Source: an uncultured Planctomycetaceae bacterium
GTDB lineage: Bacteria; Planctomycetota; Planctomycetia; Planctomycetales; Planctomycetaceae
NCBI GenBank assembly: GCA_963815195.1
Contig: CAWFGE010000012.1
Coordinates: 544,001-608,000, forward strand
Length of the DNA stretch: 64,000 bases
Direction of reading: 5' to 3'
The position numbers are program-made. Positions 28,401 through 31,400 of the stretch are shown here, piece after piece; the first letter of the stretch is position 1, and every line of letters begins with the position of its first letter.

Positions 28401-31400
28401 CGACCCCTTGCCCGTGGGCCGATTGTGGGGCGTCGGCAAAGTGACCGGCAGCGTGTTCGACCGCTGGGGCATCACCACCATCGGCGAACTGCGGCGGCTC
28501 GATCCAAAGATCCTGCACCAACAGTTCGGCCAGCAGGGAGAGCATTTCGCCAAACTGGCGCGGGGACTCGATGACCGCTCGGTCGTTCCCGATCGCGAAG
28601 CCAAGTCGATTTCCCACGAGACGACATTTGCCGCGGACATCTCCAACCGCGAGGCCCTCCGAGCGTGGTTATTGGAGCTGACGGAACACGTAGCCCGGCG
28701 GATGCGGCAGCAACAGCGGCGCGGCCGGACCGTGAACCTCAAGCTCCGCTTCGCCAACTTTCGCACGATCACGCGGGCTAAGACCTTGCCCCGCAGCACA
28801 AACGTGACGCAGGAAATTTGGCAAGCGGCGAGCGAATTGTTAATGCGCCACCTGCCCGAGTCGCATGCGGGCATCCGATTGTTGGGCGTCGGCGTCAGCA
28901 ACTTTTCGGCGGGCGAGGCTGTGCAGAAATCCCTGTTTGCGGAGGAAACGCATCAAAAACAGCAGCAACTCGACGAAGTGGCCGATGCAGTGCGGGCCAA
29001 GTTCGGGAACACCGCGCTCAACCGCGGCAGCGGTTTGCTCCACAACGCCCGGCACCGCCCCGAGCCCAAACCGAACGAATAAAAAACTCCTGGAAAAGGC
29101 CGAGGAAACTTAAGAATTCGCCGAATCCTGAATCACCCCAGCGCATATATTGTTCTGTCGCCCAAAACCTGGCGAACCATTTCGCGGGTTGTGCGTCTAA
29201 CCCTTCACACGCCTCTAGTGTAATGGCAGCATGACTGGCTCCAACCCAGTTGGTCAGGGTTCAAATCCTTGGGGGCGTGCTGGCGAACGAACCTTCGCTC
29301 GCCAAATGGGCTCATCGTCCAACAGGAAGATGCCGGTGTCGCAAGCCGGAGATCCCGGTGCAATTCCGGGTGGGTCCACTCCTCAATACAGTCCTGTGGC
29401 CTAGCGGCGAAGGCAGCTCCCTTACAAGGAGACGAGCGGGGGTTCGAGTCCCTCCAGGACTACTCACCACGCCCAGATACCCCAACCGGCAGAGCGACTC
29501 GGCTTAAAACCGAGTGTTTGCAGGTTCGATTCCTGCTCTGGGTCGTGAAGACAAACTCGGCTCGGTAGGCAAATGGCAGACCACCTTGGCTTAGAACTAG
29601 GGATGCTGTGGGTTCGAGTCCCACCTGAGCCACTCAAACAAATACGCCCTCGTGGAGCAGCGGAGTGCTCGCCTGCCTGTCACGCAGGAGATCGTCGGTT
29701 CAAATCCGATCGGGGGTGCTGAAATGGCACGGTACGCAAATGGAAAAGCGGCGAAGCTCAAACCTTCGTGATTGTCTGTGGGTTCGACTCCCTCCCGTGC
29801 TACTCAAATGATGATGCGTCGGCTGGGCATTGGCGAGCCCAAGTGGCTGTAACCCACCCGCCTATCGCTGTGGCGGTTCGACTCCGTCCCGACGCACTCA
29901 AAAAGGCCCGTTCGTCTATCGGTTAAGGACACCAGCCTCTCACGCTGGAAAGATGGGTTCGATTCCCGTACGGGTCACTGACTTTGCAGGTGCGGCAGGT
30001 GCCCAATCGGCTTTCATAAGGCCGGTGTGCTCGGCTCGATACCGGGACCTGCAACTTATCCAACATTGACGCGGGTGAGCCAGTGCTCATTCAGGCCTCA
30101 TAAGCCAGAACAGCCGGGTGCGACTCCCGGACCCGCTACTTGTCCAGGCCGGGTACGCAAACCGGAAAAGCGGGCAGGTCGAGAACGTGCGATTCTGTGG
30201 GTTCGACTCCCACTCTGGTCACTCGAATGATCCCGTGGTCCAGTGGCGAAGACGCCTGGATGACACCCAGGAGATCGGTAGTTCGATTCTACCCGGGATC
30301 ACTTGCGACAACTGGTCTGTAGGTGTTGTGGCCGCACGCCGCTGTGGTAAGGCGGAAGACCGGGTTCAATCCCCGGACGGACCTCTCGACAAATGGGCCT
30401 GCATGCCGATGGAGGCGACTGATCCTTGCAAGATCGGTGGACCACCCCAAGGGGCGGTGCCCCGGTTCAACTCCGATCAGGTCCACTGAAGGAAACGGGC
30501 TGATGGTCCAAGGGGAAGACACCGCCCTGGCGTGGCGGAAATCCGAGTTCGACTCTCGGTCAGTCCACTCACATACGGAAGGTAACCGAATTGGCTTAGG
30601 AAACTGGGTGCTAACCAGTCGCCCTGGAACTGGGGTTGGATGGGTTCGATTCCCCCACCTTCCGCTTATGGCTCGATGGTGAAACGGACATCATGTCTCG
30701 CTTCTAACGAGATGTTCCAGGTTCAAATCCTGGTCGAGCTATTCCACATCACTGTGGAGGAAAAACTATCAACATGGTGTCCGTGGTGTATGCGGTAGGC
30801 ACGCCTGCCTGTGAAGCAGGAAGTGAGGGTTCAACTCCCTTCGGTCACCCTTCGACAACGTCATGCCGACGTGGCTCGACTAAGAAAGGCGCCGCTCTTG
30901 TAAAGCGGCTTATGCTGGTGCAAATCCAGTCGTCGGCTCTTTTTGGTTTTGGTGGCTGAAATGTCGATTCACCATTATTCGCTTACGCGGCGCTGAGCTA
31001 TGTTCTGTCATGTGATTGAAAAAGTCCCGATGGTGTAACGGACAACACGAGACTTTCCTAAAGTTTCGATCCTGGTTCGATTCCAGGTCGGGATACTCAA
31101 CAACTGGCCTTGCGAGTGTGAGGGACGCACGGCGGTCTTCGGAACCGCAAGACGGGGTTCGACTCCCTGGCGAGGTGCTTGCAGAAGCGGAGAGCCAAGG
31201 GCGGAGAGCACAGAGCCAAACCGATTATATACCAAGCGTTCCGGCTCTCAACTCTCCGCTGTTTTGTCCTTGGAGTGTGCCGGATTCGCACGCGAGCCCG
31301 CGAAGCTCGCAGACCAGGTTCAATTCCTGGCGAGGACATTTTCGATATGGACGCTGGAGCCGGATGGTGAGGCGGCTGCCTGCAAAGCAGCCAGAAGTGG

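What a model noticed while it worked through the whole genome (the two positions that open the first line are those of the whole stretch)
29471..30486. Array tRNAs break the class rule: short-arm tRNA-Leu and long-arm tRNA-Ala/Arg
In the C12 tRNA array all four tRNA-Leu genes (UAA, UAG, CAA, GAG; 74-78 nt) lack the long variable arm that every known bacterial tRNA-Leu has, while tRNA-Ala(UGC) (574395-574486, 92 nt, G3:U70 kept) carries a 24-nt hairpin in its variable region. Arrays of other Planctomycetaceae genera show the same short Leu genes, and there the same hairpin (GGACCACC...GGCGGUGCC), which is the stem-loop of this genome's common small intergenic palindromic repeat, sits in tRNA-Arg(CCU). 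I read this as a conserved second tRNA population with its own architecture: class-I-shaped leucine tRNAs that are still charged, plus class-I tRNAs turned into class-II shape by insertion of a mobile REP-like hairpin int [...]
Evidence so far: ARAGORN on 20 array loci of 17 genomes held in this session (own C12 and C5 arrays, L033-L037, L041-L044, L053, L054, L056, L059, L168, L169, L171-L173) found 166 tRNAs. 20 of 23 tRNA-Leu are 74-79 nt (the 3 longer ones are Leu-CAG, 82-83 nt), against 82-86 nt for all 5 dispersed Leu genes of this genome. 2 of 9 Ala, 3 of 31 Arg and 1 of 14 Thr are 88-95 nt. Short Leu(CAA) and Leu(GAG) genes are nearly identical across 5 genomes (sequences printed in call 145), so they look selected, not decaying. 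Own Ala(UGC): acceptor GGGCCUG/CAGGUCC gives G3:U70; variable region UGGACCACCCCAAGGGGCGGUGCC. Arg(CCU) of genome G410: GGACCACCGCUAUUCGCGGCGGUGCC. Array genes score 30-63 bits with Rfam's tRNA mod [...]
(Added by a program. Inside this text positions count along the whole contig: contig position 544,001 is position 1 of the stretch shown here. "Call 12" and the like, gene names such as g00115 and contig names such as C1 are that model's own, and its searches are not shown. The text may have been shortened before it was handed on; [...] marks where a part breaks off. The agent that wrote the report below was given it as the finding of a first reader that could run no searches.)

Follow-up and report, generated by a model that had tools for sequence, protein, structure and literature searches.

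The report
Armless leucine tRNAs, hairpin-hit alanine tRNA
A cluster of about 24 spare tRNA genes carries real leucine tRNAs that lack the usual long extra arm, a form already seen in such clusters, and an alanine tRNA whose middle was overwritten by a small mobile hairpin repeat that tends to strike tRNA genes at that same spot.

Summary
ARAGORN finds Leu(UAA/UAG/CAA/GAG) of 74-78 nt and a 92-nt Ala(UGC) with G3:U70 and a 23-nt hairpin.

The short Leu genes are conserved tRNAs. In 30 array loci, 78 of 103 Leu genes are 80 nt or shorter, and all 25 long ones are Leu(CAG). In 70 distinct sequences, 95.9% of cells pair, 15 of 20 pairs show double changes, and A73 is kept in 69 of 70. The window's own Leu(UAA) is the exception, with C73 and a broken D stem.

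They are not unprecedented:
- Streptomyces coelicolor has a charged type I tRNA-Leu (PMC6614811).
- A mycobacterial cluster has a short Leu (PMC6582537).
- The Nostoc PCC 7120 array carries short Leu genes with the same four anticodons.
- Earlier notes of this scan report the same on other DNA.

Two results are new here:
- Five genomes of four other families have a stand-alone class-I Leu(UAA) and no class II Leu(UAA) was found.
- The Ala hairpin is the core of a REP-like repeat. In 10 of 19 copies in array loci it replaces the variable loop plus two T-stem bases. This looks like a hot spot, not a designed class II shape. Yet the Ala copy is 96% identical in a second genome.

The array adjoins Y-RNA-like genes and Ro60. 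No expression or charging data exist.

The parts
29209..29280 (+). tRNA-Trp(CCA), first gene of the array
   Evidence: ARAGORN; Rfam tRNA 56.5 bits
29308..29378 (+). tRNA-Ala(CGC)-type gene that ARAGORN misses; T loop UGCAAUU
   Evidence: Rfam tRNA 44 bits. The sequence read matches the Ala(CGC) genes of relatives.
29390..29463 (+). tRNA-Val(UAC)
   Evidence: 62.9 bits
29471..29544 (+). Short tRNA-Leu(UAA), 74 nt. It has C73 and a C:C mismatch in the D stem, so it is probably an inactivated copy.
   Evidence: It is the only one of 70 family members without A73. The intact paralog lies at G000:C8:349717-349790.
29559..29633 (+). Short tRNA-Leu(UAG), 75 nt, A73
29646..29719 (+). tRNA-Asp(GUC)
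29726..29803 (+). Short tRNA-Leu(CAA), 78 nt, A73, variable region of 9 nt by the count
29816..29897 (+). tRNA-Tyr(GUA), 82 nt; keeps its long variable arm
   Evidence: In 30 loci, 22 of 23 array Tyr genes are 81-84 nt.
29905..29978 (+). tRNA-Glu(CUC)
29985..30055 (+). Met(CAU)-like gene A, not called by ARAGORN in the window
   Evidence: Aligns with genes called Met(CAU), 69-72 nt, in relatives.
30070..30139 (+). Met(CAU)-like gene B, not called by ARAGORN in the window
   Evidence: It overlaps a weak Tymo_tRNA-like hit at 30072-30134.
30147..30222 (+). Short tRNA-Leu(GAG), 76 nt, A73, three G:U pairs in the acceptor stem
   Evidence: Rfam 30.0 bits
30229..30385 (+). tRNA-Val(GAC) and tRNA-Thr(GGU)
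30395..30486 (+). tRNA-Ala(UGC), 92 nt. G3:U70 is kept, but the T stem is cut to 3 pairs.
   Evidence: The minimum-free-energy fold is not a cloverleaf. No Rfam tRNA hit at E<=1.
30439..30461 (+). Hairpin GGACCACC..GGCGGTGCC, the core of a REP-like repeat. It replaces the variable loop and T-stem positions 49-50.
30497..31422 (+). Rest of the array: Ala(GGC), Ser(GCU, 89 nt, long arm), Arg(UCU), His, Thr(UGU), Arg(CCU), Arg(UCG), Arg(GCG), Cys
31433..32663 (+). Six tandem Y-RNA-like/tRNA-like units, each headed by ACTGC-N5-9-GGANTNCAT
   Evidence: 6 matches against 0.01 expected. Weak YrlA hit at 31834-31935, 31.9 bits, and tmRNA-type T-arm pieces.
32853..34463 (+). Ro60 (Rsr)/TROVE protein gene
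   Evidence: Pfam vWA_Ro60 1.7e-13 and TROVE 1.8e-11. Orthologues found in 61 of 201 family genomes.
27385..29082 (+). DinB-type (IMS family) DNA polymerase gene upstream of the array; the true start is probably downstream of 27385
   Evidence: Pfam IMS 3.7e-51 and IMS_C 3.5e-33

Best explanation
The window holds a tRNA array of about 2.2 kb with 24 genes (21 from ARAGORN, one from Rfam alone, two Met-like genes found by alignment). It is of the long, supernumerary 'L-array' kind and lies just upstream of tandem Y-RNA-like genes and a Ro60 (Rsr) gene.

Its Leu(UAG), Leu(CAA) and Leu(GAG) genes are genuine class-I-shaped leucine tRNAs. The long arm is gone, but the elements that bacterial LeuRS reads are kept: A73, U8-A14, G18G19, a 3-bp D stem with a long D loop, U48 and the T loop. 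I infer that the genome's single LeuRS leucylates them. The arm was lost only in the one class II family whose bacterial synthetase does not need it; array Tyr and Ser keep their arms. The window's Leu(UAA) copy, with C73 and a broken D stem, is probably dead, and a paralog in the C8 array is intact.

The 92-nt Ala(UGC) is not a designed class II tRNA. It is a class I tRNA-Ala in which about 5 nt (positions 45-50) were overwritten by the core hairpin of a REP-like repeat. This hairpin has a hot spot at exactly that junction, just 5' of the T loop, in array tRNA genes. The insertion weakens the T arm. The gene has nevertheless been kept nearly unchanged in a second lineage, so it is tolerated and may still work.

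Shown: anatomy, conservation, covariation, insertion positions and genomic linkage. Inferred: co-transcription, charging, use in translation under stress, and the way the hairpin moves.
For: Short Leu genes are real and selected.
- In 30 array loci (585 tRNAs), 78 of 103 Leu genes are 80 nt or shorter, and all 25 long ones are Leu(CAG).
- In 70 distinct short Leu sequences, 95.9% of cells pair, 15 of 20 pairs have changes on both sides, and 0 of 500 shuffles reach the observed covariation score. Slid controls pair only 27-50%.
- Identity elements: A73 in 69/70; U8, A14, U48 and C3:G70 in 70/70 each. C3:G70 excludes Ala identity.
- 22 of 23 array Tyr genes and 56 of 57 array Ser genes keep long arms.
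- For E. coli, A73 and the elbow contacts define Leu identity, not the long arm, and C73 abolishes charging (PMC9976931, passages of the Leucine identity section).
- G000 has one LeuRS gene over the family cut-off.

Class I Leu is used elsewhere in the phylum.
- G201 (complete, 1 contig), G210, G295, G271 and G332 have class II Leu(CAA, UAG, GAG), plus Leu(CAG) in four of them (none recovered in the 97%-complete G210), and one stand-alone 73-75-nt Leu(UAA).
- No class II Leu(UAA) was found with model R2 at E<=1e-6. The further long hits I checked are Ser or Cys, and no group I intron was found.

Precedent.
- S. coelicolor LeuRS charges a type I tRNA-Leu(CAA) (PMC6614811).
- The Nostoc PCC 7120 array has Leu UAA/GAG/UAG/CAA genes of 75-78 nt, and 23 of the 26 tRNAs of that operon are aminoacylated in vivo (PMC8421152, passage). 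By pigeonhole, at least one short Leu is charged there.

Hairpin.
- The genome has 29 exact copies, 25 of them inside a larger repeat GAACCGGGGC-hairpin-CCCCTGCGGCTAAT.
- 4 of 114 near-copies lie in or beside the three arrays (about 7 kb in all), where about 0.09 is expected.
- In 32 array loci there are 19 copies. Ten sit at the variable-loop/T-stem junction in sense, in 8 different tRNA species, each replacing 5-6 nt and leaving 'C(N)GG-TTC'.

Context.
- Ro60 and six Y-RNA-like units lie directly downstream.
- An array segment lies within 5 kb of Ro60 in 13 genomes, a lower bound.
Against: - There is no direct evidence of transcription, processing or charging for this organism.
- E. coli LeuRS cannot charge the S. 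coelicolor type I tRNA-Leu (PMC6614811, results section 12), so acceptance of armless Leu is not universal among bacterial LeuRS.
- The 'disruption' reading of Ala(UGC) is weakened by its 90/94 identity with G164. That is the second best of the 18 shared genes compared (the other 17 range 64-98%), and the hairpin arms are conserved too.
- A second, unrelated insert family in Ala(GGC), Arg(CCU) and Arg(UCU) diverges quickly while the tRNA body stays conserved. That fits working long-armed tRNAs.
- The hot-spot count partly depends on my ability to recognise the host tRNA.
- None of the 6 Y1_Tnp (RAYT-type) frames of the genome lies next to a hairpin; the nearest is 2.8 kb away. No mobilising enzyme is identified.
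Confidence: 0.7

Rival explanations
1. The arrays encode a second tRNA population with its own adaptive architecture: armless Leu tRNAs, plus class I tRNAs (Ala, Arg and others) deliberately converted to a class II shape by a hairpin that serves a purpose, for example as a protein-binding or stabilising arm.
For: - The hairpin lands at the one place where a class II arm emerges in 10 of 19 copies.
- Ala(UGC) with its hairpin is 96% identical between two array lineages that are about 78% identical overall.
- The loop differs between copies while the stem is kept: CCCC-AA-GGGG against CCC-TGC-GGG.
- A second insert family in Ala(GGC) and Arg(CCU) is found in 4 and 2 loci.
Against: - The host tRNA differs from genome to genome. 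Most orthologues lack the insert: only 3 Ala(UGC) genes carry the hairpin, beside the 27 insert-free Ala(UGC/CGC) genes aligned.
- Every junction insertion removes 2 T-stem pairs.
- The same hairpin deletes the anticodon loop of a Leu(CAA) gene and splits a Leu(GAG) gene (L016, L015).
- It is the core of a dispersed repeat, with 29 exact copies, mostly outside tRNA genes.
- The window's Ala does not fold to a cloverleaf at minimum free energy, while its insert-free orthologue does.
Confidence: 0.2
2. The short Leu tRNAs are made but do not serve as ordinary leucine donors. They could act as decoys or spare substrates against tRNA-cutting toxins and defence nucleases, as ligands of the neighbouring Ro60/Y-RNA machinery, or they could carry another amino acid.
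For: - The array is linked to Ro60 and Y-RNA-like genes.
- tRNA arrays are discussed as putative anti-defence systems (PMC12803027, abstract and introduction passages).
- Roles outside translation were left open for the Anabaena array (PMC8421152, passage of section 29).
Against: - The full LeuRS identity set and the anticodon loops are conserved in 69-70 of 70 sequences.
- C3:G70 excludes AlaRS, and the missing arm excludes SerRS (identity rules from PMC9976931, passages).
- A class I Leu(UAA) is the only UAA isoacceptor found in five other genomes, so this shape does decode in the phylum.
Confidence: 0.12
3. The array genes, short Leu included, are decaying relics of a horizontally acquired element, and the odd shapes are simply damage.
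For: - The window's Leu(UAA) has C73 and a broken D stem.
- Five of the 21 ARAGORN genes get no Rfam tRNA hit.
- Several genes are hit by repeats.
Against: - Compensatory changes keep 95.9% of cells paired across 70 sequences from 29 of the 30 array loci.
- Gene order is conserved across many genera.
- 143 of 201 family genomes match the array DNA.
Confidence: 0.05

Closest known systems
Type I tRNA-Leu(CAA) of Streptomyces coelicolor (Fan et al. 2019, PMC6614811; I read the abstract, introduction, results section 12 and discussion)
   Same: It is a bacterial tRNA-Leu with a 5-nt variable loop that coexists with class II Leu tRNAs and a single LeuRS, and it is shown to be leucylated.
   Different: There it is one essential chromosomal isoacceptor. 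Here four anticodons are supernumerary array copies, and in other families a stand-alone Leu(UAA). In S. coelicolor A73 is not an identity element; here A73 is kept in 69 of 70. Charging is not tested here.
trn operon (L-array) on plasmid pCC7120delta of Nostoc/Anabaena sp. PCC 7120 (Santamaria-Gomez et al. 2021, PMC8421152; passages read)
   Same: It is a long same-strand array of supernumerary tRNA genes. My ARAGORN run on the plasmid finds Leu UAA/GAG/UAG/CAA genes of 75-78 nt, with Tyr (87 nt) and Ser(GCU) (90 nt) long, which is the same set of four short Leu anticodons. The D loop reads CAAUUGGCAGA, as here. It is linked to an RNA-stress response through co-regulation with rtcB.
   Different: The sequences are not close. 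Three of the four score 58-59 bits with my short-Leu model, no better than an unrelated Gln tRNA. No Ro60 or Y-RNA neighbour is reported there (0 occurrences of Ro60 or Rsr in the text). The passages I read say nothing about the missing arm.
Cluster-encoded tRNA-Leu(TAG) with a short variable loop in Mycobacterium mucogenicum/phocaicum (Behra et al. 2019, PMC6582537; one passage read)
   Same: A short Leu lies in a tRNA gene cluster, while the housekeeping isoacceptor has the normal long loop.
   Different: It is a one-sentence remark about a single isoacceptor in another phylum, with no analysis of conservation.
REP/BIME-type extragenic palindromes and their RAYT transposases (recalled; no paper read here)
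   Same: It is a short imperfect palindrome in dozens of dispersed copies, embedded in a longer composite repeat.
   Different: Here the core hairpin alone turns up inside tRNA genes at a fixed structural position and replaces 5-6 nt. None of the 6 Y1_Tnp frames is flanked by it.
Mobile tRNA introns at non-canonical positions in Archaea, and nematode class II tRNAs with class I anticodons (both recalled; not read here)
   Same: Extra sequence spreads among different tRNA genes, or tRNAs appear whose shape class does not match their anticodon.
   Different: No splicing signal or bacterial splicing enzyme is evident. Removing the hairpin does not restore a normal tRNA.
Rsr (Ro60)-YrlA modules (Chen et al. 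2014, PMC4201824; passages read)
   Same: A Ro60 gene has tRNA-like Y RNA genes within 4 kb, as at 31433-34463.
   Different: Here six tandem units follow a 24-gene tRNA array. The units score below Rfam's YrlA threshold (31.9 against 69 bits).

Membership tests
Type I (class-I-shaped) tRNA-Leu | Leucine anticodon in a 7-nt loop on a 5-bp stem | tested here: met
   UAA, UAG, CAA and GAG. The anticodon stem is paired in 98.0% of cells across 70 sequences.
Type I (class-I-shaped) tRNA-Leu | Short variable region without a stem (type II has more than 10 nt) | tested here: met
   5-9 nt in 70 of 70 sequences.
Type I (class-I-shaped) tRNA-Leu | Cloverleaf supported by compensatory change | tested here: met
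   15 of 20 pairs have changes on both sides; 0 of 500 shuffles reach the observed covariation score.
Type I (class-I-shaped) tRNA-Leu | Leucine identity elements: A73, U8-A14, G18G19, the 15-48 pair, U54-A58 | tested here: met
   A73 in 69/70; U8, A14, G18, G19 and U48 invariant. The window's Leu(UAA) fails, with C73.
Type I (class-I-shaped) tRNA-Leu | Leucylated by LeuRS | not testable with these tools
   There is one LeuRS gene. The only evidence is by analogy (PMC6614811; Anabaena array, PMC8421152).
L-array (long supernumerary tRNA gene array) | Twenty or more same-strand tRNA genes at two or more per kb | tested here: met
   24 genes in 2.2 kb, all on the + strand.
L-array (long supernumerary tRNA gene array) | Adds redundant isoacceptors to a full housekeeping set | tested here: met
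   The genome has dispersed copies of the Leu, Ala, Val, Thr, Arg and other isoacceptors.
L-array (long supernumerary tRNA gene array) | Patchy, horizontally spread distribution | tested here: inconclusive
   143 of 201 family genomes match. Arrays with short Leu but a different gene order occur in 8 other families. No tree was built.
L-array (long supernumerary tRNA gene array) | Silent, then induced by translational stress | not testable with these tools
   Only contigs of relatives in RNA libraries are available, and they do not show transcription.
Class II tRNA (for Ala(UGC) 30395-30486) | [quoted passage not shown] | tested here: met
   A 23-nt hairpin; ARAGORN draws it as a variable arm.
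Class II tRNA (for Ala(UGC) 30395-30486) | Otherwise intact cloverleaf with a 5-bp T stem | tested here: not met
   The T stem has 3 pairs plus C:A and C:U mismatches. The minimum-free-energy fold is not a cloverleaf. No Rfam tRNA hit.
Class II tRNA (for Ala(UGC) 30395-30486) | Arm conserved among orthologues | tested here: inconclusive
   The arm is present in the window, L002 (G164) and L011 (G056) and absent from the other orthologues. Window and G164 are 90/94 identical.
REP-like repeat | Many dispersed copies of an imperfect palindrome | tested here: met
   29 exact and 114 near copies; 25 of the 29 share longer flanks.
REP-like repeat | Associated RAYT/Y1 transposase flanked by the repeat | tested here: not met
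   6 Y1_Tnp frames; the nearest hairpin is 2.8 kb away.

The most novel reading that the evidence does not exclude
A REP-type hairpin homes to one structural position of tRNA genes, between nucleotides 44/45 and 50/51 just 5' of the T loop. It turns class I tRNAs into long-armed ones, and at least tRNA-Ala(UGC) with the hairpin is kept by selection as a working tRNA. Together with class-I tRNA-Leu(UAA) as the only UUA reader in several other families, this phylum would tolerate class switching in both directions within its ordinary translation system.
Probability: 0.25. Interest if true: 0.7.

Novelty: new variant of a known kind. Interest (0 to 1): 0.45.

Why it matters
Textbooks and the 2023 identity review still state that tRNA-Leu carries the long arm everywhere except animal mitochondria (PMC9976931, Tyrosine identity passage). 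Armless Leu tRNAs are in fact a regular feature of long tRNA arrays. Here they also appear as the only UAA isoacceptor found in some free-living bacteria.

That gives a natural test bed for how LeuRS copes without the arm. It is also a caution for tRNA annotation pipelines that score Leu with class II models.

The hairpin result is the fresher part. A small repeat that repeatedly overwrites the same few nucleotides of different tRNA genes points to a targeting mechanism that reads the T arm. It also offers natural experiments on how much insertion a tRNA can bear.

The physical link between a tRNA array, Y-RNA-like genes and Ro60 suggests one RNA-stress module. This parallels the Anabaena array, which is co-regulated with RtcB.

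Tried and rejected
- Expression. The look-up of sequencing runs found no run that holds the genome; the best share of words was 0.19. I laid four RNA libraries. Short contigs of relatives, 88-99% alike, cover array genes. For example, X17 record 19 covers 29471-29543 with 4 differences, and X15 record 2 covers 29559-29715. These are contigs in RNA libraries and DNA may be in them; I laid no silent control stretch, so this is no evidence of transcription. I name no habitat.
- Relatives in phages and plasmids. blastn of 29380-30310 gave only short hits to the Asp, Glu and Tyr genes and none to the Leu genes. The Brevundimonas phage Kikimora array has four Leu genes of 86-88 nt, all long. The stretches of Mycobacterium phage Tonenili that I viewed hold no Leu gene. 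So I did not confirm here that short Leu is common in phages.
- The three hairpin copies without REP flanks (L031-L033) gave no Rfam family; the only hit was a group II intron piece at E=0.094.
- Precise removal of the hairpin in silico restored no gene that ARAGORN calls, in 0 of 19 cases. A simple insertion or an intron is therefore rejected.
- The promoter and terminator scan of 28900-33000 found no more sites than the shuffles.
- RAYT link.
- Literature. 'tRNA array'/'variable arm'/'tRNA-Leu', Planctomycetes with tRNA clusters, Planctomycetes with tRNALeu or type I tRNA, palindromic inserts in the variable loop of tRNA genes, and Ro60/Y RNA with tRNA arrays. None describes armless Leu in this phylum, a hairpin repeat in tRNA variable regions, or an array-Ro60 link.

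
Full report
WHAT IS THERE. ARAGORN finds 21 tRNA genes on the + strand between 29209 and 31422. Rfam's tRNA model adds one more at 29308-29378, of the Ala(CGC) type, at 44 bits. Alignment with relatives shows two further Met(CAU)-like genes at 29985-30055 and 30070-30139. That makes 24 genes in about 2.2 kb, with spacers of about 3-110 nt and no encoded CCA. A consensus scan finds no more promoter-like or terminator-like sites than shuffled sequence. Upstream lies a DinB-type polymerase gene. Downstream lie six tandem tRNA-like/Y-RNA-like units and a Ro60 (TROVE) gene. The genome (G000, 25 contigs) has two more arrays, on C5 (9 genes) and C8 (12 genes), besides a normal dispersed tRNA set.

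Leu(UAA), Leu(UAG), Leu(CAA) and Leu(GAG) are 74, 75, 78 and 76 nt long. The five dispersed Leu genes are 82-86 nt and have a paired variable arm. Ala(UGC) is 92 nt, keeps G3:U70, and carries GGACCACCCCAAGGGGCGGTGCC at 30439-30461.

THE SHORT LEU GENES ARE A SELECTED FAMILY.
- Array DNA matches 143 of 201 genomes sampled from the family, in 76 of 92 genera.
- In the 30 best loci ARAGORN tRNAs in a largely conserved order: Val-Leu(UAA)-Leu(UAG)-Asp-Leu(CAA)-Tyr-Glu-Leu(CAG)-Met-Met-Leu(GAG)-Val-Thr-Ala-Ala-Ser-Arg....
- Of 103 Leu genes, 78 are 80 nt or shorter, and all 25 long ones are Leu(CAG). By contrast, 22 of 23 Tyr genes and 56 of 57 Ser genes keep long arms.
- I aligned the 70 distinct short Leu sequences (A1) and counted a standard cloverleaf on them. 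95.9% of cells pair, 15 of 20 pairs have changes on both sides (244 cells), and 0 of 500 shuffles reach the covariation score. Slid controls pair only 27-50%.
- A73 is present in 69 of 70. U8, A14, G18, G19, U48 and C3:G70 are invariant.
- The D arm is of the Leu type, with a 3-bp stem and a 10-11-nt loop reading CAAnnGGCAGA, as in the genome's class II Leu genes.

IDENTITY. [quoted passage not shown] Arm-less and anticodon-less variants stay active unless A73 becomes C73. SerRS, in contrast, depends on the arm (PMC9976931, passages). The arm is therefore missing exactly where the synthetase can do without it. I take that as a further sign of working genes; this step is inference. By the same rule the window's own Leu(UAA), with C73 and a C:C mismatch in the D stem, is probably dead. 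Its paralog in the C8 array is intact. G000 has a single LeuRS gene over the family cut-off, in a 998-codon frame.

BEYOND THE FAMILY. A covariance model of the short Leu family (R1) separates the five short Leu genes of G000 (75-88 bits) from all other tRNAs (58.5 bits or less).
- In 150 other genomes sampled from the phylum, 22 have a match at E<=1e-15.
- The 9 new loci that I opened (L043-L051) show short Leu genes (73-79 nt) in 8 arrays or clusters with other gene orders, from other families, and one stand-alone Leu(UAA).
[quoted passage not shown] They are G201 (complete, single contig), G210, G295, G271 and G332.
- A model of class II Leu (R2) finds in each of them only Leu(CAA), Leu(UAG), Leu(GAG) and, in four of them, Leu(CAG). 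No Leu(CAG) was recovered in G210, which is 97% complete. The short Leu(UAA) is the next-best hit.
- The six further matches longer than 80 nt that I fetched are Ser or Cys.
- No group I intron that could hide a split Leu(UAA) gene is found. The control search does ring in Synechococcus.
- So in these genomes the class I form appears to be the only UAA isoacceptor. It follows that LeuRS of this phylum can use the armless shape; this is an inference.

WHAT IS KNOWN.
- Fan et al. 2019 showed that S. coelicolor has a type I tRNA-Leu(CAA) that its single LeuRS charges, and that E. coli LeuRS cannot charge it (PMC6614811; introduction, results section 12 and discussion read).
- Behra et al. 2019 remark that a cluster-encoded Leu(TAG) in mycobacteria has a short variable loop (PMC6582537; one passage).
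- Tran et al. list arrays in Planctomycetes but say nothing about arms (PMC4758250; passages).
- Notes of earlier sessions of this scan say that armless Leu is the norm in such arrays. I tested that lead on the best-studied array, plasmid pCC7120delta of Nostoc PCC 7120. ARAGORN finds 24 tRNAs there, with Leu UAA/GAG/UAG/CAA of 75, 78, 75 and 78 nt and long Tyr and Ser(GCU). These are the same four anticodons as in the window.
[quoted passage not shown] At least one of its four short Leu tRNAs must therefore be charged (pigeonhole inference).
- The Nostoc genes share the architecture but are not close in sequence: 58-59 bits with R1.
- The note that short Leu is common in phages was not confirmed here. 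One phage array I opened has long Leu genes.

THE LONG ALA(UGC).
- The hairpin occurs 29 times exactly in the genome. In 25 of these it is the core of a longer repeat, GAACCGGGGC-hairpin-CCCCTGCGGCTAAT.
- With one mismatch allowed per arm there are 114 copies. Four lie in or beside the three arrays (about 7 kb), where about 0.09 would be expected.
- In 32 array loci I found 19 copies. I mapped the flanks onto insert-free orthologues.
  - Ten sit in sense orientation at the same place in eight tRNA species: Ala(UGC) in the window, G164 and G056; Gly(GCC); Gln(UUG); Gln(CUG); Asp; Ile; Glu(CUC); Arg(CCU).
  - One further look-alike at C8:349614 was not mapped.
  - Two lie in the anticodon stem or loop of Leu genes; L016 has lost its anticodon loop.
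  - One joins a Val half to a Thr half.
  - One lies between the two Met-like genes.
  - Three are antisense, beside the 3' side of a T arm.
  - One is an ordinary REP in a spacer.
- At the junction the event is always the same. The tRNA is intact up to one base after the anticodon stem. Then 5-6 nt (the variable loop plus T-stem positions 49-50) are replaced by the hairpin plus C, and the gene resumes at (N)GG-TTC.
- The T stem is left with 2-3 pairs. Removing the hairpin restores a gene that ARAGORN calls in 0 of 19 cases.
- The window's Ala folds to a non-cloverleaf minimum (-39.8 kcal/mol), while its insert-free orthologue folds to a perfect cloverleaf. Rfam's tRNA model does not report the gene.
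- ARAGORN itself missed most of these genes.

EVIDENCE THE OTHER WAY.
- Ala(UGC) with its hairpin is 90/94 identical between the window and G164. Their arrays are about 78% identical overall, and the other 17 shared tRNA genes range from 64 to 98%. This gene has not drifted since the insertion.
- A second, unrelated insert of about 16 nt at nearly the same place in Ala(GGC) (4 loci), Arg(CCU) (2 loci) and Arg(UCU) (1 locus) diverges quickly while the tRNA body stays conserved.
- I therefore read the variable region as the one place where a tRNA tolerates extra sequence, and the hairpin as a repeat with a strong site preference. Whether these genes work is an open question.
- How the hairpin moves is unknown. 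Six Y1_Tnp frames exist in the genome, but none lies next to a hairpin.

CONTEXT AND LIKELY ROLE.
- Ro60 orthologues occur in 61 of 201 family genomes.
- Comparing their places with the array matches listed, an array segment lies within 5 kb of Ro60 in 13 genomes: G000, G168, G164, G196, G165, G034, G169, G193, G187, G176, G069, G009 and G107. Usually it is the Arg-Cys end of the array. This is a lower bound, because one search lists only part of its matches.
- Ro60 genes with tRNA-like Y RNAs nearby are known from more than 250 bacteria and phages (PMC4201824, passages).
- I found no paper that links them to tRNA arrays.
- By analogy with the Anabaena array, which is induced by translational stress together with rtcB (PMC8421152), I propose that this array is a co-transcribed reserve tRNA set belonging to an RNA-damage response. 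This is inference only.
- Contigs of relatives in four RNA libraries cover array genes, but they do not show transcription.

VERDICT. The armless Leu genes are real, conserved and probably functional, but they are a further member of a known and little-discussed kind. The long Ala is best explained by a repeat that hits a hot spot, not by a second architecture, although the gene has been retained. The fresh points are the structural precision of the hairpin events, the stand-alone class I Leu(UAA) in other families, and the array-Ro60 linkage.

LIMITS.
- There are no data on expression or charging.
- 30 of more than 600 array matches were examined.
- The supplements of the cited papers were not opened. 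Those of PMC8421152 and PMC4758250 may list the Leu gene structures.

Noticed in passing
window 31433-32663: Six tandem units, each headed by ACTGC-N5-9-GGANTNCAT (0.01 expected by chance) and holding T-arm-like GGGTTCGAATCCC pieces. There is one weak YrlA hit at 31834-31935 (31.9 bits, below the gathering score of 69). They lie between the tRNA array and the Ro60 gene, so they probably form a multi-copy Y-RNA-like family.
   Followed up: partly
window 32853-34463, with G000:C12 and 12 other genomes: A tRNA array segment lies within 5 kb of the Ro60 gene in 13 genomes of the family. I found no paper that links tRNA arrays with Ro60 or Y RNA.
   Followed up: partly
window 29985-30055 and 30070-30139: Two Met(CAU)-like genes that ARAGORN does not call here but does call in relatives. 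They are 69-72 nt long, with a very small D arm and unusual T loops (GAUCGUUAC and GUGCGACAC types).
   Followed up: partly
window 29308-29378; L004-L030 Ala(UGC/CGC) genes; L002/L011 Gln(UUG): Several array tRNAs have a T arm that reads GGTGCGATTCC or GGTGCAATTCC, with G in place of the near-universal U55.
   Followed up: no
L052 (G201), L051 (G210), L057 (G295), L058 (G271), L055 (G332): A stand-alone class-I-shaped tRNA-Leu(UAA) of 73-75 nt is the only UAA isoacceptor found in five genomes of four other families of the phylum, next to the class II Leu genes.
   Followed up: yes
L002, L003, L020, L023 (Ala GGC); L012, L023 (Arg CCU); L020 (Arg UCU): A second insert of about 16 nt, unrelated to the REP hairpin, at the same variable-loop/T-stem junction. 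The insert varies widely between genomes while the tRNA body is conserved.
   Followed up: partly
L047 (G207:C1:3007406-3008003) and L048 (G294): Tandem repeats of short Leu(UAA)/Leu(UAG) alternating with 85-nt Tyr/Cys calls, and a run of four short Leu genes (UAG, CAA, UAA, AAG). These are other layouts of armless Leu genes in another family.
   Followed up: no
G000:C10:430116-431348: A second Ro60-like frame in the same genome, 81% identical over residues 31-442 and interrupted by three TGA codons. It is probably a pseudogene.
   Followed up: no
G000:C12:138431, C19:13294, C23:482930 (L031-L033): Three copies of the hairpin core with neither REP flanks nor tRNA flanks. No Rfam family matches and their context is unexplained.
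   Followed up: partly
window 37445-39175: A cysteinyl-tRNA synthetase gene lies 6 kb downstream of the array, which ends with tRNA-Cys. MarR, SDR and pirin genes lie between them.
   Followed up: no
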